From an uncultured Candidatus Bathyarchaeia archaeon (GTDB lineage Archaea > Thermoproteota > Bathyarchaeia > 40CM-2-53-6), in the NCBI GenBank assembly GCA_964601325.1, contig CAZRNA010000001.1, positions 4,042 to 68,041 of the forward strand: DNA of 64,000 nt, given 5' to 3'. A program made the translations under genes and the position numbers. Shown here piece by piece: positions 58,475-63,925 of this stretch (its first letter is position 1; every line of letters starts with the position of its first letter). The notes beneath the pieces were generated by a model. The model was not told where the DNA came from. It ran no database searches and saw only the letters and a list, made by a program, of their open reading frames with translations.

Positions 58475-59113
58475 TCAGGTGCGGCCGATCTTTCTTGTCG
58501 CTTTCCCTTTTCTCACGACCTTCCTCTTCAGTGGGGTTCCGCAGACTCCGCACGTCTGATCAGCATCTTCGGTCGTGTATCTCCTGAAACAAGCGGGACA
58601 GTAGTAGATCCAGTCGAACTTCTCCGCTATCCCGAATGTTGCGAGCGAGGCGTGCTCCATCCCTAGTGTCTCGGACACATTCTGTATTGCATAGTCATCG
58701 CTAACGATGGCGGGCGAGAGGCCGTTCTCTTTCAGATCGAGGGCGAGGGCGAGAACCTCAATATCCGCTTTCGAGAGCACCGCTGCGTCACCGACTTTGG
58801 ATGAAGTCTCTTGCACAGTCTTCATGGAAGATGAGGTTGGTTTCTTCACTGTCAGCTGACCTGAATCTCGGGATGTGGCGAATCTGGTGTACGGCAGAGC
58901 GTCAGGCGTTAGCTCATCCAAGACGCTCGTGGCTGAGTAACTGGGCAGGCTGAGCGCAGAAGGATTAAGACCCATCACGAACGCAGAGGTGTCTAGCACC
59001 AAAACCTTCGTCTCAGTCTTCTCCGGGGCCAAACGACTTACGCTACCCGAGGCTTCTGATAGGCAGTCGAAGCCTACGATCGGATTAAGGTTTGGTCGAG
59101 CAGAAGTCGACAC
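58475..59113 (-). CDS. PIN-domain plus Zn-ribbon endonuclease (Nob1-like)
   Basis: 'VLVLDTSAFV' supplies the PIN Asp. 'IVSDDYAIQNV' is a PIN acidic motif. The C-terminal 'CPACFRRY...CGVCGTP' is a Zn ribbon. Confidence 0.5.
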   Translation of the reverse strand: MSTSARPNLNPIVGFDCLSEASGSVSRLAPEKTETKVLVLDTSAFVMGLNPSALSLPSYSATSVLDELTPDALPYTRFATSRDSGQLTVKKPTSSSMKTVQETSSKVGDAAVLSKADIEVLALALDLKENGLSPAIVSDDYAIQNVSETLGMEHASLATFGIAEKFDWIYYCPACFRRYTTEDADQTCGVCGTPLKRKVVRKGKATRKIGRT

Positions 59114-59230: not shown

Positions 59231-60481
59231 TCAGCGGTGCCTATTCAATGCCCAGGCGCTCAATGTGATTCCCGGCAACGCCGCCGAGGTGAGCGCTAGC
59301 AAGCTCGTGGACAGCTGCATTAGCAGGTCGAATCTTGTTACCTCTGAAATCACGATCAGAGTTGAAGCAGTGGCCAGCAGCACTAGCGACAATGATACGT
59401 GCTTGAACGTCAGTTTCTTCCGGAAAGCTCGTGAGACGGCAACCGAAAGACCATAGAATGGCAATGCGTAGAGTAACCCGATCATGCTGCCTGTGAGGAC
59501 GCCTGCTACCACGATGGCTCCTTCAGGGCTGAAAGCAAGTGCGGTATGGAGCTGCTGAGAAACCCAGAGAATCCCAATCAGCGGATACAGCACATACCGC
59601 ATGACCGTCCTGAGGTTCTCGTTCGAACTGATCGTCTGAGCAACCTGCGGACTGAACGAGTAGTAGATCAGATTGAAGACCTTCATTCCCTCACCGCCCG
59701 CGTATGTCTGAAGCACGTCGCGATCGCGGAAGTTGCGCAACAGCTGAACCTCAGGACTCAACTCAGATCCATAAGTCGCAGTAGCAATGTAGCAAGCCCC
59801 AAAGCAGTGCTTCATGTAGGGTGTCCAAAAACCGCCGGAACAGAAATAGCCATACTCACACTCGGGTTCTTTGAGTAAGTAGTTGCACGTCCTTATACAA
59901 TTGAGTTCGTTGGGCTTGCATTCTGGACAGCGCTCTGGGTTTGTCTCCCGCTGCCATGCCCCGTTCGTGCATACCTCTCGTGTATTCCATTTCTTCGGGT
60001 CTATCTTACAATTTACCACGTTCCTAGGTGGGTCTCCAGCGTTGCATTGCGGACAGGGCTGTGGGTTTGTCTCTTGCTGCCATTCCCCGTTCTTGCATAT
60101 CTGGCGTGTCTTCCACCCTGTGCCGCCCGGACACCACTCCGTAACTTTGGGTGCTTCCTCAGCACCGCATTGGGTAGACTGCGTTTGCGTTTCAGTCTGT
60201 GTCTCTGTAGGACAGTCCTGTGTTTCTAGAACCTGGACACCGTTGTGGCACACCATTGCTCTCTTCCATGTCTTGTACTCCTGTCCTGGACACCACTCCC
60301 AAACTGACGCTTGACCTTCTATACAGCCCGCTGGTGGGGGTCCCACACTTAGTGGATGAGGCTGTCCAGCGTTGACGTGAACAACATTGGCTCCAATCGA
60401 GACTATGAAAATGACTAGAATCGCAGTGGCGACAAGATAGGACAGACGCACTCCAACGTATCCCCCTTGATAGAACGCCAT
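59231..60481 (-). CDS. Membrane protein with three tandem Trp/Cys-rich repeats of about 40 aa and a conserved 'CxxCYIATATYGS...LRNFRD' module
   Basis: An N-terminal signal-anchor is followed by repeats 'WxWCPGxxxWKTRxxCxNGxWQxETNPxxCPxC' x3. 'CFGACYIATATYGSELSPEVQLLRNFRD' is followed by at least 4 TM helices. Confidence 0.5.
   Translation of the reverse strand: MAFYQGGYVGVRLSYLVATAILVIFIVSIGANVVHVNAGQPHPLSVGPPPAGCIEGQASVWEWCPGQEYKTWKRAMVCHNGVQVLETQDCPTETQTETQTQSTQCGAEEAPKVTEWCPGGTGWKTRQICKNGEWQQETNPQPCPQCNAGDPPRNVVNCKIDPKKWNTREVCTNGAWQRETNPERCPECKPNELNCIRTCNYLLKEPECEYGYFCSGGFWTPYMKHCFGACYIATATYGSELSPEVQLLRNFRDRDVLQTYAGGEGMKVFNLIYYSFSPQVAQTISSNENLRTVMRYVLYPLIGILWVSQQLHTALAFSPEGAIVVAGVLTGSMIGLLYALPFYGLSVAVSRAFRKKLTFKHVSLSLVLLATASTLIVISEVTRFDLLMQLSTSLLALTSAALPGITLSAWALNRHR
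59910..60320 (-). repeat. Three imperfect tandem DNA repeats of about 120 bp encoding the Cys-rich protein repeats
   Basis: The encoded repeats share the W/C/P/N/G skeleton. The antisense ORF 59883..60314 shows the same periodicity. Confidence 0.45.
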
Positions 60482-60517
60482 GGACTCTCCTATACGAATA
60501 AAACACTTGGCATCCTG

Positions 60518-61444
60518 CTACTTCTTCGACGACTCCGAGCAGTTGACGCCCTTTACAATCAGCATCTCCGCAAATAGGTTCAACACTGTCTCCCGCCGCT
60601 CAATCTTCTCGAAAACGGCCACAATCGGGGTCAGCAGGAGATCCCTTGCCTTCGCTACGGACCGGTCAGGAAACTGCTGGATCCAAAGATCTAGCCACCT
60701 CAACTGTTTCGGAAACAGATGATACCCGTTCACCTCGACATCTGAGAAGCCCGCCTCCAATATAGCGTTCCTAATCTCACTAGGCGTAAAATGTAGCTCA
60801 GGGCTAGTGAGCTTCCTCAAGGCCCCAATCTTGCTGAGGAACACGCAAGACCAATAACGCATCCAAAGATTCTGGACGTTCGGAACTCCGACTATGATGC
60901 AGCCTCCATTCTTCGTCGCATCTCGTTGCTCGTTCAGACATGTTCTCCATTCTCGTACGTGTTCTATGCTGCCGAAACTGCAGGCAACCCCGAATGATCC
61001 AGATCTGAAGGGCAAATAACGAAAATCCGCCAGAACCGGATGCGCCTTGTCGTAGAGTCCATCGTCCATCATTCTACGACGTGCCACTTCGATAACTCTA
61101 CGCGAAACATCAACATACGCAACGTCCAGACCTCTCTGCATGAAATAGTAGGCGTACTTCGTCAACGTAGCTTCATTGTAAACGTCGAGCTTGAGTATCC
61201 ACTCACCCTGTCTCGGCTTGGTCCATTTCAGAAAGTATCTCTCGACCAAGCTCCGGTAGGCACGATCGGTCGGCGTGGGAACGGTTTGCCTGAGGTGAAA
61301 CGAATGTTCGAACACGTTTTCCCATAGACGCCTCATCTCGGCGCCCGTCATTATTGTGAGATCCCTTTCACCGTGAGGCAAAGCTCTGACACCATTTGAG
61401 GCTGAGACGGCGACGAACGTACCAGCTGGCAGCTGAGATCCCAC
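60518..61444 (-). CDS. Class I SAM-dependent methyltransferase-fold protein (Methyltransf_11-like) with an atypical motif I
   Basis: 'LPFRSGSFGVACSFGSIEHV...KNGGCIIVGV' matches post-II/III motifs. The Gly-rich motif I is replaced by 'LKLDVYNEAT'. Confidence 0.4.
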   Translation of the reverse strand: MGSQLPAGTFVAVSASNGVRALPHGERDLTIMTGAEMRRLWENVFEHSFHLRQTVPTPTDRAYRSLVERYFLKWTKPRQGEWILKLDVYNEATLTKYAYYFMQRGLDVAYVDVSRRVIEVARRRMMDDGLYDKAHPVLADFRYLPFRSGSFGVACSFGSIEHVREWRTCLNEQRDATKNGGCIIVGVPNVQNLWMRYWSCVFLSKIGALRKLTSPELHFTPSEIRNAILEAGFSDVEVNGYHLFPKQLRWLDLWIQQFPDRSVAKARDLLLTPIVAVFEKIERRETVLNLFAEMLIVKGVNCSESSKK

Positions 61445-62618
61445 CGGGTCTTGACACGAGGCGTTTCCAGTGCCACAGAAACCGGAGTCTGTGCTTGTAC
61501 GGGTGTCGCCTCGCGCCTTCTAGTTGCTCGTCAACCACGCGTCTCGCCAGCTCTCCCGGAGTACTTCCGTTTGGGCGCTCGAGCACCAGCATAACTCCAT
61601 CGTGGATTTTCTCTCGAACAACGCTCCGCAGAACATCTGTTGGAACATTTAGTCTGCACAGGAAACCTCCTAGAACGCCTCCTGCGTTTGCGACGAAGTC
61701 AGGAATGACCAAGATGCCTCTCTCAGCGAGAGGGGCCTCGGCAGACTCACTCACAGGGGCGTTGGCACACGGGACAATCAACTTCGCTTGGACCTCGTCG
61801 ATGTTTGACCTCGTGACAAGTAGTGGCCGCGCGGATGGAATCAGTACGTCGACCGACTCATTGACTATCGCGGACGGTTCTCTAATCTCAGCCATAGGCG
61901 TAGTCCTCACGTATTCCTCGAATGCGGTGAGGCCCGGGCGTTGTTTGGAATCGGAGACAAGTCCGAGGTCAATCCCGCCTTCTTGGAATAGCGCCTGTTC
62001 TTCGTTCGATATGGCGGAGACCTTCAGACCGCGTTCGACCAACATCATTCCTATCAATCTGCCAAGCCTACCAAAACCCTCAATCGCAACTGAAGAATTC
62101 CCTATTCTGTTTCCTGTCATCCTGATGCTTGTCACTACTGCTTCGACTACACCCTCGGCTGTGCATAGCCGAGCCAAAGGGATACTATCTACAGTTTTCT
62201 TGAGGATGCTATTTCGAAGAAGGGACTCGCAACCAAGCTGTTTGTATATCGCTATTATGTCCGATTCCGTGGAGCCCATGTCTGGGCTAGGCACATAGCG
62301 TAACTCTCGAATCAGGTCAGACACAGCTTCGCCGAAGCCGGCAATTACCTTGACACGAGATCCGGATTTGGGATCAAAAGCGATTCCGGTTTTCGCTCCG
62401 CCGGCGGGAATGGCGAAGAAAGCATTCTTGCGAGTCATTGCCTGAGCGAGAAGTTTCACCTCCGCCTCACTAACATCTGGAAGGATTCGCACTCCTCCGG
62501 AGCTTGGTCCCAATAGTGTACTGTTGAGGACAAGTACGCCATCGAACCCGTGTTTCCAGTTCTCGAATCGAATGATGGCTTCTGAGTCATGCATCGTAAT
62601 CCACCTTGCCACGTTCAA
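61368..62618 (-). CDS. Glu/Leu/Phe/Val-family amino acid dehydrogenase (glutamate dehydrogenase-like)
   Basis: 'GPSSGGVRILPDVSEAEVKLLAQAMTRKNAFFAIPAGGAKTGI' carries the catalytic Lys-Gly-Gly region. A C-terminal NAD(P) Rossmann domain is present. Confidence 0.8.
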   Translation of the reverse strand: MNVARWITMHDSEAIIRFENWKHGFDGVLVLNSTLLGPSSGGVRILPDVSEAEVKLLAQAMTRKNAFFAIPAGGAKTGIAFDPKSGSRVKVIAGFGEAVSDLIRELRYVPSPDMGSTESDIIAIYKQLGCESLLRNSILKKTVDSIPLARLCTAEGVVEAVVTSIRMTGNRIGNSSVAIEGFGRLGRLIGMMLVERGLKVSAISNEEQALFQEGGIDLGLVSDSKQRPGLTAFEEYVRTTPMAEIREPSAIVNESVDVLIPSARPLLVTRSNIDEVQAKLIVPCANAPVSESAEAPLAERGILVIPDFVANAGGVLGGFLCRLNVPTDVLRSVVREKIHDGVMLVLERPNGSTPGELARRVVDEQLEGARRHPYKHRLRFLWHWKRLVSRPGGISAASWYVRRRLSLKWCQSFASR

Positions 62619-62629
62619 TGTATGTTAGG

Positions 62630-63925
62630 CTAGAACGGAACCAGCTTGATTGGGAACTGCAGAATCATCATGACAAGCAGGCAGGACAGATAGAGGCTCC
62701 TGACGTACGGGTTAATCGAACGATGACACGTCATGCTCGCCACCATTATCGAGATAGGTCCCATCGTTGGCAACATATAGAAGATGTACATGATACGACC
62801 GGCGAATGCTATTGGATACATTATCAGGTATGCCCAGCTCCACCAGACCAGCCCGAAGAGGTCGAGCCTTGCGCGAGTTCTCCAGTAGCTCCAGGCTGAG
62901 AACGCAAGTCCGGGAAGCATCATGTAGATCAGCATCGGATTCATCTCTCCCACATAGTTCACGGTGAGTCCGCTTACTGTGCCGCTGTAGTATTCGATAA
63001 CGTTGCGATTGAATATCCAAAGCCAAGGCGGACAGATGATCCCGAAGGTAGAACTGTTCGAGCTAACGGCAACATACGATCCGTCCAAGTTATAGTGGTC
63101 GACCCTGTATAGGCCCAGCCTAGCGATATTCTGCCACGGAGTCATTTGCCACCAGACCAACATCAAAGCCGAGAGTAGGGCAACTGGTACAGCGAGACCG
63201 AGCAGTACCTTTGCAGCCAGCACAGCTGACTCTCTTGTGATGAGTGTGCGCTTCGAAACGCGTTCGACAGCCAGAAAAGTCATGATGATCGCGATTCCGA
63301 TGACGCCCATCTCCTTGGAGAGCGCCGATAGTCCAATCGCCATTCCAGCGGCAACGTAGCGGCCACGCAGGAAGAGGTAGAATCCGAGCATCATGAATGA
63401 CATCATGAAGATATCGAGCGTGAATATGCGTGAATGAATCAACGTCAGCGTGTCTAGCGAAAGAAAAGTCGCTGCGTAGAACGCGACTTGATCGGATGCA
63501 AGCCTCTTCACCGCCAGATAGAGAAACAGTAGCAGAAGTGTCCCAAAGATCACGCTCGGCAACCTGTACGCGAGCGCATTTTCGCCGAGCGCCAATGCCG
63601 ATATGGCCACAATGAGCTTCGCGAGCGGGGGGTGTCCCGGATATGGATCTGTAAACTTTGGATAGATGTCAGTCACAGGATTGTCTGCGGGGCCGAAAAT
63701 CATTGGCCTGCCAATTATGTTCCTCGCGGCGTTGATGAAGTAAACTTCGTCGAAGACTAGGCCCAAATCCCACGAATCCACACAGGAAGCGGGCTCGCAA
63801 CGAGTTGTGAGTGGGGGAACACCAATGAATGCCAAACGAAGAGCGAGACTCGCGCACAATACGAAAAGAAATAGTCTATCCCAGTGACTGAGTCTCCGAT
63901 GCAAATGAAGGCCGGGCCAAGTCAT
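62630..63925 (-). CDS. GT-C fold dolichyl-phosphate-mannose-dependent glycosyltransferase (PMT/GT39/ArnT-like)
   Basis: 431 aa with about 11 TM helices and a first extracytoplasmic loop containing 'DEVYF' (DE motif). Confidence 0.6.
   Translation of the reverse strand: MTWPGLHLHRRLSHWDRLFLFVLCASLALRLAFIGVPPLTTRCEPASCVDSWDLGLVFDEVYFINAARNIIGRPMIFGPADNPVTDIYPKFTDPYPGHPPLAKLIVAISALALGENALAYRLPSVIFGTLLLLFLYLAVKRLASDQVAFYAATFLSLDTLTLIHSRIFTLDIFMMSFMMLGFYLFLRGRYVAAGMAIGLSALSKEMGVIGIAIIMTFLAVERVSKRTLITRESAVLAAKVLLGLAVPVALLSALMLVWWQMTPWQNIARLGLYRVDHYNLDGSYVAVSSNSSTFGIICPPWLWIFNRNVIEYYSGTVSGLTVNYVGEMNPMLIYMMLPGLAFSAWSYWRTRARLDLFGLVWWSWAYLIMYPIAFAGRIMYIFYMLPTMGPISIMVASMTCHRSINPYVRSLYLSCLLVMMILQFPIKLVPF

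What the first reader, a model, noticed from the sequence alone, without database searches (positions are those of the whole stretch)
59231..60481. Membrane protein with three tandem Trp/Cys-rich repeats of about 40 aa and a conserved CxxCYIATATYGS module
After a signal-anchor the protein carries three imperfect repeats with the skeleton W-x-W-C-P-G-x(3-4)-W-K-T-R-x-x-C-x-N-G-x-W-Q-x-E-T-N-P-x-x-C-P-x-C. Each repeat has four Cys, so disulfides or metal sites are plausible. A TETQTETQTQSTQ linker joins the first two. Then comes 'CFGACYIATATYGSELSPEVQLLRNFRDRDVL', a motif I recognise as recurring near the C-termini of unrelated secreted archaeal and bacterial proteins. In those proteins it looks like an anchoring or sorting module. 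Here it is followed by about 150 aa of TM helices rather than a single tail helix. The repeats are also visible as three DNA repeats of about 120 bp. The gene heads a same-strand run with an atypical SAM-methyltransferase-fold gene (60518..61444, degenerate motif I), GDH and a PMT-like GT-C glycosyltransferase.
Basis: partly seen in the sequence, partly recalled or inferred. Interest (0 to 1): 0.65.

Follow-up and report, generated by a model that had tools for sequence, protein, structure and literature searches.

The report
Archaeal surface protein with CFI-box anchor
This gene encodes a small cell-surface protein of a Bathyarchaeia-like archaeon: four cysteine-rich mini-domains held on the membrane by a widespread, already catalogued but unstudied C-terminal "CFI-box" module, so it is a real but fairly ordinary member of a known class.

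Summary
The ORF is real: 59231..60481, minus strand, 416 aa. About 20 intact orthologues exist, with dN/dS 0.13-0.49.

The "CxxCYIATATYGS" region is the curated NCBIfam domain NF041770, CFI-box-CTERM (75.9 bits, cutoff 40). No paper in the searched library mentions it.

The long hydrophobic tail is not an exception. In 112 of 114 motif-bearing relatives the conserved Cys lies 179-203 aa from the C-terminus. AlphaFold models box plus tail as one seven-helix domain (pLDDT 91). At least 574 copies occur in reference genomes, and the best 80 are all Thermoproteota. They carry unrelated cargo ectodomains.

The ectodomain has four repeats, not three. Each is a roughly 39-aa, four-Cys, three-stranded beta unit. 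No Pfam or NCBIfam model covers it, but 1-6 copies occur in 36 other protein clusters.

- The gene is last in its same-strand run, not first.
- It has its own conserved promoter-like element.
- Only two DNA repeats are clear.
- The PMT/GDH/methyltransferase linkage holds only among close relatives.
- The CFI box also sits on cytoplasmic-type plasmid proteins, which argues against a pure secretion-sorting signal.

Best reading: a hypervariable, recombining surface protein on a polytopic membrane anchor. Interest is modest.

The parts
59231..60481 (-). Whole ORF, 416 aa, including the stop codon at 59231-59233.
   Evidence: An identical protein, P0001, and about 20 full-length orthologues at 38-68% identity were found. 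dN/dS is 0.13-0.49.
60491..60510 (-). Conserved upstream element CCAAGTGTTTTATTCGTATA. It is read as an archaeal BRE/TATA-like promoter (inference).
   Evidence: The CCAAGT-TTTTA core is invariant in six orthologous loci, including the two most divergent. Sequence.
60449..60468 (-). Shine-Dalgarno-like AAGGGGGA (60461-60468) followed by a GTG codon (60449-60451), the probable true start.
   Evidence: A GTG/TTG codon is conserved in 6 of 6 loci. The ATG at 60481 is present in only 2 of 6.
60368..60481 (-). N-terminal signal sequence, aa 1-38. It has a basic residue (R12), a hydrophobic core (aa 13-30) and a VNA|G site. A cleavable Sec signal peptide is inferred; an uncleaved signal anchor is not excluded.
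   Evidence: The Kyte-Doolittle peak is at aa 16-34. GANVVxVxAG is conserved in orthologues.
60212..60325 (-). Cys-rich unit 1, aa 53-90 (C53, C64, C78, C90).
   Evidence: The cysteines are invariant in 18 orthologues. AlphaFold gives a three-stranded beta unit. The unit HMM hits it.
60170..60211 (-). Thr/Gln/Glu linker PTETQTETQTQSTQ, aa 91-104.
   Evidence: From the sequence. It is conserved in most orthologues. pLDDT is below 50 in the model.
60053..60169 (-). Cys-rich unit 2, aa 105-143.
   Evidence: It contains DNA repeat copy 60042-60115.
59927..60046 (-). Cys-rich unit 3, aa 146-185.
   Evidence: DNA repeat copy 59916-59989 is 84% identical to the unit 2 copy.
59804..59920 (-). Degenerate Cys-rich unit 4, aa 188-226, with six Cys.
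   Evidence: AlphaFold strands at fragment positions 155-161, 169-177 and 180-185. C, G and W columns are invariant. The unit HMM hits aa 188-230.
59576..59794 (-). CFI-box proper, aa 230-302. It comprises the invariant Cys230, IATATYGS, LRxFRD, FNxxYYSFSP and LYPLxGIL.
   Evidence: NF041770 matches model positions 1-69 of 69 at 75.9 bits, cutoff 40. Conservation across 91 relatives is shown.
59234..59575 (-). Hydrophobic tail, aa 303-416. It holds the end of helix 4 and three TM helices at aa 319-353, 359-382 and 385-415. There is a K/R cluster at aa 350-361 and a basic C-terminus.
   Evidence: AlphaFold models aa 222-416 as one domain with pLDDT 91.4 and pTM 0.82. No Pfam or NCBIfam model covers this part.
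60518..61444 (-). Upstream neighbour: class I SAM-methyltransferase-fold protein with a degenerate motif I. The true start is probably near 61354.
   Evidence: Pfam Methyltransf_11 at 2.5e-11, matched from model position 10. LKLDxYNE[AS]T is invariant in five orthologues.
61368..62618 (-). Upstream neighbour: divergent Glu/Leu/Phe/Val dehydrogenase-like protein.
   Evidence: Pfam ELFV_dehydrog and ELFV_dehydrog_N. NCBIfam scores are 127-140 bits against equivalog cutoffs of 620-750.
62630..63925 (-). First gene of the run: PMT_2 / GT-C glycosyltransferase-like membrane protein.
   Evidence: Pfam PMT_2 at 2.3e-14 and PMT at 6e-07.
58475..59113 (-). Downstream same-strand neighbour: PIN plus zinc-ribbon protein. 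PIN_6 is the Pfam label in the syntenic loci; a Nob1-like identity is my reading.
   Evidence: The ORF is. PIN_6 was called in the syntenic loci.

Best explanation
The gene encodes a cell-surface protein of a Bathyarchaeia-like (Thermoproteota) archaeon. It is built as signal sequence + variable cargo + standard anchor.

SHOWN
- The last 187 aa (Cys230 to the end) form one conserved, confidently modelled seven-helix domain.
- Its first roughly 70 residues are the curated CFI-box (NF041770).
- This long form is attached C-terminally to many unrelated extracytoplasmic domains in hundreds of Thermoproteota proteins.
- The cargo here is four tandem units of about 39 aa. Each has four conserved Cys (six in unit 4) and is modelled as a three-stranded beta unit. 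The units belong to an uncatalogued repeat family found in other proteins.

INFERRED
- The protein is exported through Sec and the ectodomain stays outside.
- Helices 5-7 cross the membrane out>in, in>out, out>in. This places the K/R-rich loop (aa 350-361) and the basic C-terminus in the cytoplasm.
- The CFI-box helices and the helix 3/4 hairpin pack against these TM helices at or in the outer leaflet. The module would therefore be a stable polytopic anchor, not a cleaved sorting signal.
- The 18 ectodomain cysteines form intra-unit disulfides and Cys230 is left unpaired.
- The Thr-rich linker is a flexible, possibly O-glycosylated spacer.
- The ectodomain is a binding or adhesion surface that diversifies by recombination while the anchor is conserved.
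For: - NF041770 matches aa 230-302 over the full model at 75.9 bits against a cutoff of 40.
- All 91 aligned relatives hit the same model.
- In 112 of 114 motif-bearing relatives the Cys-to-C-terminus distance is 179-203 aa, median 188.
- The AlphaFold model of aa 222-416 has pLDDT 91.4 and pTM 0.82 and is all-helical, with seven helices.
- The family-averaged profile shows three strongly hydrophobic helices. About two K/R per sequence sit in the helix 5/6 loop and 2.35 K/R in the last 12 residues.
- The cargo domains of relatives are typically extracytoplasmic: MG2, CARDB, Big_3_5, PQQ propellers and multihaem cytochromes. The sampled sequences have N-terminal signal sequences.
- The mid-form relatives P0020, P0030 and P0125 end just after helix 5 with an Arg-rich tail. 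This fits helix 5 running out>in.
- At least 574 relatives occur in species-representative genomes. The best 80 are all Thermoproteota, with several copies per assembly.
- In the ectodomain, 16 of the 18 Cys columns are invariant across 18 orthologues. The model gives four beta units with pLDDT 86-91 within the units.
- An exhaustive profile search found 44 representative clusters, 22 of them at E<=1e-10. Thirty-six carry 1-6 units. Several end in a hydrophobic stretch followed by basic residues.
- dN/dS is below 0.5 in both halves of the gene.
- Synonymous divergence is mosaic along the gene.
Against: - No experiment or paper exists for the CFI-box.
- Topology rests on hydrophobicity, charge bias and a predicted model only. 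Helices 3 and 4 could be true TM helices or a re-entrant hairpin.
- The conservation is stronger than a passive anchor needs. G238, S239, R249, R252, Y273, Y274 and S277 are invariant. Cys230 and an acidic residue in TM helix 6 (E380) are at least 90% conserved. This hints at an additional activity.
- The box also occurs on proteins with cytoplasmic-type domains. One of them has no TM helix, so the box itself is not necessarily a membrane element.
- The taxon is inferred from named homologues only.
Confidence: 0.68

Rival explanations
1. The CFI-box module is a true sorting signal. An unidentified sortase-like enzyme recognises it, cleaves at or near the invariant Cys and attaches the ectodomain to a lipid or to the cell envelope, by analogy with PGF-CTERM and archaeosortase A.
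For: - A near-invariant Cys sits exactly at the junction between cargo and module.
- The module is C-terminal in all 114 motif-bearing homologues of the subfamily.
- Many paralogues occur per genome, with diverse cargo.
- NCBI curators named it '-CTERM'.
Against: - The module is 187 aa long. It is conserved throughout and folds as one seven-helix domain. Known sortase-type signals are about 25-35 aa, a figure I take from general knowledge.
- No other C-terminal-signal model matches at E<=1.
- No gene family recurs next to 80 such genes.
- The box occurs on Mrr_cat+WYL and cold-shock proteins that have no visible signal peptide.
Confidence: 0.12
2. The long CFI-box domain has an activity of its own, such as a lipid- or ligand-binding site, an oligomerising lattice element, a channel or an enzyme. 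The fused ectodomains would be accessories to that activity.
For: - Polar residues are invariant or near-invariant in or near the membrane. These include YYSFSP, N270 (the N of the FNxxYYSFSP motif), R249, R252, D253 and the acidic residue in TM helix 6.
- The box is reused on defence-like cytoplasmic proteins, where a membrane-acting effector would make sense.
Against: - There is no similarity to any enzyme or transporter family by sequence or fold.
- The cargo is extremely diverse, as expected of a generic anchor.
- There is no conserved partner gene.
Confidence: 0.15
3. The four genes PMT_2, GDH-like, methyltransferase and target form a functional unit. The GT-C enzyme would O-glycosylate the Thr-rich linker or the ectodomain of this protein.
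For: - The genes lie on the same strand with tight spacing.
- The order PMT_2 > GDH > methyltransferase > target is kept in L001-L003, and in L007, where the downstream flank differs. L004 keeps GDH > methyltransferase > target; its upstream ORF at the contig end is unassigned.
- The methyltransferase is also upstream in L006.
- The TETQTETQT linker is conserved.
Against: - All these loci come from close relatives. Their methyltransferases are 77-90% identical and the whole neighbourhood is syntenic.
- The target has its own conserved promoter-like element and SD-like site.
- Among 80 other CFI-box loci, one has a PMT_2-like ORF and none has the GDH or the methyltransferase.
Confidence: 0.15
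4. The four cysteines of each repeat bind a metal ion (a Zn or Fe knot) instead of forming disulfides.
For: - Each unit has four invariant Cys.
- CPxC motifs occur at the unit 2/3 and 3/4 junctions.
- The lineage is thought to be anaerobic, which is my general knowledge. Extracellular disulfides are less favoured in such organisms.
Against: - Only one CxxC-like pair exists per junction, and it spans two units.
- Isolated units in other proteins, such as P0124, keep four Cys spaced about 10-13 residues apart without knuckles.
- Between units 1 and 2 a 14-aa linker separates the corresponding cysteines.
- There are no conserved His residues.
Confidence: 0.2

Closest known systems
NCBIfam NF041770, CFI-box-CTERM domain-containing protein
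   Same: The full 69-position model matches aa 230-302 at 75.9 bits, against a cutoff of 40. All 91 aligned relatives match too, and one is named this way by NCBI. The signature is the same: C-[FYIL]-I-A-T-A-x-Y-G-S, then LRxFRD, then YYxxSP.
   Different: The curated model stops in the middle of helix 4. Here, and in the whole Thermoproteota subfamily, about 115 further residues with three TM helices belong to the same predicted domain. No Pfam or NCBIfam model covers that part. Other members end about 15-20 aa after the model (Haloquadratum, Comamonadaceae) or carry the box internally (Ralstonia), on non-secreted-type proteins. No published function was found.
Archaeosortase/exosortase-type C-terminal signals (PGF-CTERM with ArtA, PEF-CTERM, PEP-CTERM)
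   Same: Both are recurrent C-terminal modules behind diverse exported cargo. Both occur as many paralogues per genome and carry a conserved signature at the junction.
   Different: Those signals are short. From general knowledge they are about 25-35 aa: a motif, one TM helix and a basic cluster, and they are removed by a dedicated enzyme. This module is 187 aa with seven helices and is conserved throughout. No such HMM matches and no candidate processing enzyme was found nearby.
Single-pass C-terminal TM anchors of archaeal surface proteins
   Same: The predicted role is the same: holding an exported ectodomain on the cytoplasmic membrane with a basic cytoplasmic end. Other proteins carrying the same Cys-rich unit appear to use this simple anchor, for example P0124, P0129 and P0138.
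   Different: This anchor is polytopic, with three clear TM helices plus a helical hairpin and cap. Its sequence is also conserved across classes of Thermoproteota.
Small tandem disulfide-rich extracellular modules (EGF/VWC-like repeats), by analogy only
   Same: Both are tandem units of about 40 aa with a fixed Cys pattern and a small beta-sheet core, arranged as beads on a string.

Membership tests
NCBIfam NF041770 CFI-box-CTERM | HMM score at or above the curated cutoff of 40 bits. | tested here: met
   75.9 bits, E=1.6e-21.
NCBIfam NF041770 CFI-box-CTERM | Full-length match that includes the Cys-[FYI]-I-A-T-A-x-Y-G-S box and the LRxFRD motif. | tested here: met
   Model positions 1-69 of 69 align to aa 230-302. 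The motif residues are invariant or near-invariant across 91 relatives.
NCBIfam NF041770 CFI-box-CTERM | Domain lies at the extreme C-terminus, as the name implies. | tested here: not met
   114 residues follow the match. The same holds in 112 of 114 relatives. The family as scored also includes an internal case in Ralstonia. This feature is therefore a naming convention rather than a scored criterion.
Archaeosortase/exosortase-type sorting signals (PGF-CTERM, PEF-CTERM, PEP-CTERM) | Short tripartite signal within about 35 aa of the C-terminus: a motif, one TM helix and a basic cluster. | tested here: not met
   The module is 187 aa with seven helices, three of them strongly hydrophobic.
Archaeosortase/exosortase-type sorting signals (PGF-CTERM, PEF-CTERM, PEP-CTERM) | Match to one of the curated C-terminal-signal HMMs. 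| tested here: not met
   The NCBIfam scan at E<=1 returns only NF041770.
Archaeosortase/exosortase-type sorting signals (PGF-CTERM, PEF-CTERM, PEP-CTERM) | A cognate sortase gene co-occurs in the genome. | tested here: inconclusive
   Only neighbourhoods were examined. No family recurs beside 80 CFI-box genes. Genome-wide co-occurrence was not tested.
Archaeosortase/exosortase-type sorting signals (PGF-CTERM, PEF-CTERM, PEP-CTERM) | The tail is removed proteolytically and the protein is attached to a lipid or the envelope. | not testable with these tools
   This needs proteomics or biochemistry.
Uncatalogued four-Cys repeat of about 39 aa (defined here) | Pattern C-x(10-12)-C-x(9-15)-C-x-x-G-x-[WV]-x(5-12)-C, modelled as a three-stranded beta unit. 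| tested here: met
   Four units lie at aa 53-92, 105-146, 146-188 and 188-230. The Cys, G and W columns are invariant and the model gives four beta units. The unit HMM was built partly from this protein, so its hits on the query are not independent evidence.
Uncatalogued four-Cys repeat of about 39 aa (defined here) | Homologous units occur in unrelated proteins. | tested here: met
   44 representative clusters at E<=1e-3 and 22 at E<=1e-10 among 1.84 billion proteins. Thirty-six carry 1-6 units. Six have none, and of these I judged P0123 and P0154 to be spurious low-complexity repeats.
Zinc-ribbon / rubredoxin-type metal knuckles | Two CxxC knuckles within one unit. | tested here: not met
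   The only CPxC motifs span unit boundaries. Within-unit Cys spacings are about 10-13 residues.
Functional operon with PMT_2 / GDH-like / methyltransferase | The adjacency is conserved beyond closely related genomes. | tested here: not met
   It is kept only in loci whose methyltransferase is 77-90% identical. It is absent from 80 other CFI-box loci, apart from one PMT_2-like ORF.

The most novel reading that the evidence does not exclude
The 187-aa long-form CFI-box domain may be the general surface-protein anchoring system of Bathyarchaeia and other Thermoproteota. On this reading it is an undescribed, self-contained membrane domain whose invariant junction Cys and intramembrane polar residues perform a specific step, such as lipid attachment, self-insertion or lattice formation. 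Its roughly 70-aa core would be the same module that bacterial and haloarchaeal plasmid proteins (Mrr_cat+WYL, cold-shock+zinc ribbon) use to reach or act on the membrane. The module would then link archaeal cell-surface biogenesis with defence-type effectors.
Probability: 0.2. Interest if true: 0.65.

Novelty: new member of a known kind. Interest (0 to 1): 0.35.

Why it matters
Bathyarchaeia are abundant, uncultured sediment archaea, and their cell envelope is essentially unknown.

This protein shows the standard way that lineage, along with Nitrososphaeria, Hecatellales and other Thermoproteota, appears to hold exported proteins on the cell. The device is a conserved polytopic domain of about 188 aa. 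The curated CFI-box model captures only its first third. Recognising the full domain would improve annotation of hundreds of surface proteins, including multihaem cytochromes and propeller proteins. It also defines a concrete target for topology and proteomics experiments.

The four-Cys repeat of about 39 aa is a small, uncatalogued extracellular domain family that could be added to the domain databases.

The gene itself is not exceptional. It is one cargo among many on a known, if unstudied, module.

Tried and rejected
- Tandem Repeats Finder on the gene found only an unrelated 10-nt repeat.
- Full-text searches for CFI-box-CTERM, CFIATAAYG and variants found no papers.
- Pfam gave nothing for the target at E<=1 and nothing for the repeat in nine other carriers.
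- PDB profile searches gave E=0.69 and E=0.48 only.
- The afdb50 fold library was not available.
- I chased NF058595 'invert_tail', which 10 of 91 relatives hit, to see whether it models the TM tail. It does not. The hits are below the cutoff and lie in Ig-like ectodomains upstream of the box.
- A word-index search with the tail alone (aa 303-416) returned only three short near-identical proteins. It is uninformative on whether the tail exists without the box.
- All-against-all clustering of ORFs around 80 CFI-box genes found no recurrent partner. Apart from the CFI proteins themselves, the larger clusters looked like antisense artefacts or local synteny.
- PADLOC gave no defence-system hit for the target.
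- Cluster look-ups gave no organism names.
- P0123 and P0154 from the exhaustive search were rejected as low-complexity artefacts. They have no units by the unit HMM.
- An intein/Hint-like reading of the Cys-Phe junction was considered and dropped, because the region is confidently helical.
Full report
**1. The observation**

A 416-aa ORF lies at 59231..60481, on the minus strand. Its translation shows:
- a hydrophobic N-terminus (aa 13-34);
- 19 cysteines;
- the linker TETQTETQTQSTQ (aa 92-104);
- the block CFGACYIATATYGSELSPEVQLLRNFRD, starting at aa 226;
- hydrophobic segments towards the end.

A fourth, degenerate unit follows at aa 188-226. An alignment of 18 orthologous ectodomains has 16 of the 18 ectodomain Cys columns invariant, together with the G-x-W after the third Cys of units 2 and 4. 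AlphaFold2 on that alignment gives four three-stranded beta units, with pLDDT 86-91 inside the units. Overall pLDDT is 80.2 and pTM 0.38, as expected for beads on a string.

At DNA level only units 2 and 3 are clearly repeated: 74 nt at 84% identity, 126 nt apart. Units 1 and 2 share just 21 nt, and Tandem Repeats Finder sees no array.

**2. The gene is real and maintained**

An identical protein and about 20 full-length orthologues (38-68% identity) exist in public metagenomes. Pairwise dN/dS against five of them is 0.13-0.49 in both halves of the gene.

**3. The C-terminal module**

NCBIfam NF041770, "CFI-box-CTERM domain-containing protein", matches aa 230-302 over its whole length (positions 1-69 of 69). 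The score is 75.9 bits against a cutoff of 40. Pfam has nothing. No paper in the searched library mentions the name or the motif.

It is not:
- Among the 120 best homologues, 114 carry the motif. In 112 of them the conserved Cys lies 179-203 aa from the C-terminus, median 188. The two exceptions have 136-137 aa.
- About 100 of these proteins share only this C-terminal 40-45% with the query. Their N-terminal domains are unrelated: MG2, CarboxypepD_reg, Big_3_5, CARDB, PQQ propellers and multihaem cytochromes.
- All 91 aligned members hit NF041770.
- Conservation runs through the whole module. G238, S239, V245, R249, R252, G262, Y273, Y274 and S277 are invariant. Cys230, LYPLxGIL and a Glu in the sixth helix are at least 90% conserved.

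AlphaFold2 with this alignment models aa 222-416 as one all-helical domain of seven helices, with pLDDT 91.4 and pTM 0.82. The box and the tail are thus one unit. The curated model covers only the first third, and no Pfam or NCBIfam model covers the rest. The NF058595 'invert_tail' hits in 10 relatives are below the cutoff and lie in the ectodomains, not in the tail.

**4. Topology (inference)**

Averaged over the family, helices 5-7 (aa 321-349, 361-382, 385-412) are strongly hydrophobic. Helix 4 is borderline and helix 3 is amphipathic. K/R residues cluster in the helix 5/6 loop and at the C-terminus.

The cargo domains are of extracytoplasmic types, and the sampled sequences begin with signal sequences. 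The simplest topology is therefore:
- cargo and CFI-box outside;
- helix 5 running out>in, helix 6 in>out, helix 7 out>in;
- C-terminus inside.

The mid-form relatives (P0020, P0030, P0125) stop right after helix 5 with an Arg-rich end, which fits this picture. Whether the helix 3/4 hairpin spans the bilayer or is re-entrant cannot be decided here.

**5. Distribution**

The best 80 are all Thermoproteota. Most are Bathyarchaeia. Others are Hecatellales, Nitrososphaera, Nitrosopumilales and Methanomethylicales. Several assemblies contribute more than one locus, and 108 CFI-box ORFs were found in the 80 loci. The window holds only this one copy. From the named homologues, the window's organism is inferred to be Bathyarchaeia-like.

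**6. The box outside this subfamily**

A tblastn search of the 77-aa box region against plasmids hit 137 records. Most are Ralstonia, followed by Burkholderia, Paracoccus and Acinetobacter. One hit is on a Haloquadratum walsbyi plasmid. Three were examined:
- The Haloquadratum protein is Mrr_cat + WYL + CFI-box (84 bits) and ends about 17 aa after the model.
- A Comamonadaceae plasmid protein is cold-shock domain + zinc-ribbon-like + CFI-box (90 bits), with no hydrophobic helix after it.
- The Ralstonia 'peptidase' carries the box internally, at aa 97-166 of 337 (45 bits).

None of the three translations shows a signal peptide. However, the box is not restricted to secreted proteins. That argues against a Sec-coupled sorting signal and for a more general helical module, whose role could be membrane association, docking or something unknown.

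**7. The repeat unit**

An exhaustive HMMER search with the ectodomain profile ran over 1.84 billion representative proteins. It found 44 clusters at E<=1e-3 and 22 at E<=1e-10. Two are low-complexity artefacts (P0123, P0154). Thirty-six carry 1-6 units by a unit HMM.

The consensus is C-x-E-G-x3-V-x-E-Y-C-P-D-G-x2-W-K-x-R-x2-C-x-N-G-x-W-V-x-E-x-Q-x-C-P. The carriers use different C-terminal ends:
- a single hydrophobic stretch plus basic tail (P0124, P0129, P0134, P0138);
- a mid-form CFI tail (P0125);
- a short, sub-threshold CFI-like end (P0126).

No Pfam model covers the unit, and there is no solved-structure relative by fold or sequence. It is a small, uncatalogued extracellular domain family. 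The protein has 18 ectodomain Cys (4+4+4+6) plus the family-wide Cys230. Intra-unit disulfides with a free Cys230 are therefore the economical reading.

**8. Genomic context**

On the minus strand the order is PMT_2/GT-C (63925..62630), GDH-like (62618..61368), methyltransferase (61444 or about 61354..60518), target, then a PIN_6 gene (59113..58475). The target is therefore the last of the four, not the head.

The order is kept in L001-L003, and from GDH onward in L004, but there the whole neighbourhood is syntenic. It is also kept in L007, and for the methyltransferase in L006, where the downstream flank differs. Even so, those methyltransferases are 77-90% identical to the window's, so these are still close relatives. 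Beside 80 other CFI-box genes there is one PMT_2-like ORF, and no GDH or methyltransferase.

Upstream of the target, a block CCAAGTGTTTTA is invariant in all six loci. It is followed by AAGGRGG and a conserved GTG/TTG at window position 60451. The ATG at 60481 exists in only two loci. The gene probably has its own promoter and starts at 60451. A glycosylation link between PMT_2 and the Thr-rich linker remains an untested idea.

**9. Evolution**

Synonymous divergence is mosaic along the gene:
- Against L001, dS is 0.06-0.56 across aa 232-416, but 1.1 to saturation across aa 105-230.
- Against L004, units 2-3 have dS 0.16-0.19, while unit 1, unit 4 and the tail reach 1.0-1.5.

Ectodomain dN (0.45-0.82 in units 2-4) far exceeds that of the flanking genes (0.02-0.20). 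Flanking genes also vary in dS, so recombination is common in this population. Even so, the ectodomain behaves like an exchangeable, fast-diversifying cassette on a conserved anchor. P0030 pairs the same ectodomain type with a different (mid-form) tail. P0021 pairs a 72%-identical tail with an unrelated ectodomain.

**10. Verdict**

The finding is real. Its core interpretation, a recurrent C-terminal anchoring module behind a Cys-rich repeat ectodomain, is largely right. The protein is nevertheless an ordinary member of an already curated, though unpublished and functionally unstudied, family.

Three things are worth recording beyond the annotation:
- The CFI-box is the first third of a seven-helix membrane domain of about 188 aa that is the common anchor of Thermoproteota surface proteins.
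- The same box sits on cytoplasmic-type plasmid proteins.
- The four-Cys unit of about 39 aa is an uncatalogued domain family.

Rival readings keep low to moderate probability: a processed sorting signal, an active membrane domain, metal knots, and a PMT operon.

Noticed in passing
L089:2218-3252, L090:2608-3249, L088:2713-3726 (plasmid loci): The CFI-box (NF041770) scores above its cutoff on proteins with cytoplasmic-type domains. These are Haloquadratum PL47 (Mrr_cat+WYL+CFI, next to a restriction endonuclease), a Comamonadaceae plasmid protein (cold-shock+zinc ribbon+CFI, no TM helix), and a Ralstonia megaplasmid 'peptidase' that carries the box internally.
   Followed up: partly
window 59231-60481 compared with L001, L002 and L004: Synonymous divergence is mosaic inside the gene. 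Against L001, dS is 0.06-0.56 in the anchor half but saturated in units 2-4. Against L004 the pattern is reversed for units 2-3. This indicates recombination or cassette exchange in the ectodomain.
   Followed up: partly
window 60449-60510 (minus strand): The upstream block CCAAGTGTTTTA is invariant in six orthologous loci. It is followed by an SD-like AAGGRGG and a conserved GTG/TTG at 60451. The annotated ATG at 60481 is present in only 2 of 6 loci, so the real start is probably 10 codons downstream.
   Followed up: yes
window 60518-61444 (minus strand): The methyltransferase-fold protein has LKLDxYNE[AS]T at motif I instead of a GxGxG loop. This is invariant in five orthologues, so it is a maintained feature and not decay. 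The longest ORF overlaps the GDH-like gene by 77 nt, and the true start is probably near 61354.
   Followed up: partly
window 61368-62618 (minus strand): The Glu/Leu/Phe/Val-dehydrogenase-like protein scores far below every NCBIfam equivalog cutoff (127-140 bits against 620-750). Its substrate is therefore unclear.
   Followed up: no
window 1-64000: The whole 64-kb window has no Rfam match at gathering thresholds, not even a tRNA.
   Followed up: no
L001:1-1745, L002:211-1341, L003:1-1707: In the syntenic loci, genes hit by the Pfam ThiF and (weakly) UQ_con models lie just beyond the PMT_2 end of the run, on the opposite strand. I read them as E1-like and E2-like genes of a ubiquitin-like system. 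This position falls outside the window.
   Followed up: no
P0088 (569 aa), found: A protein with multihaem c-type cytochrome matches carries the same long CFI-box anchor. Extracellular electron-transfer proteins in this lineage may therefore use this anchor.
   Followed up: no
L038 and L083 (MEZD01000039.1), and the 80 GTDB loci in general: CFI-box genes often occur as neighbours or within about 14 kb of each other. There are 108 such ORFs in 80 loci.
   Followed up: partly
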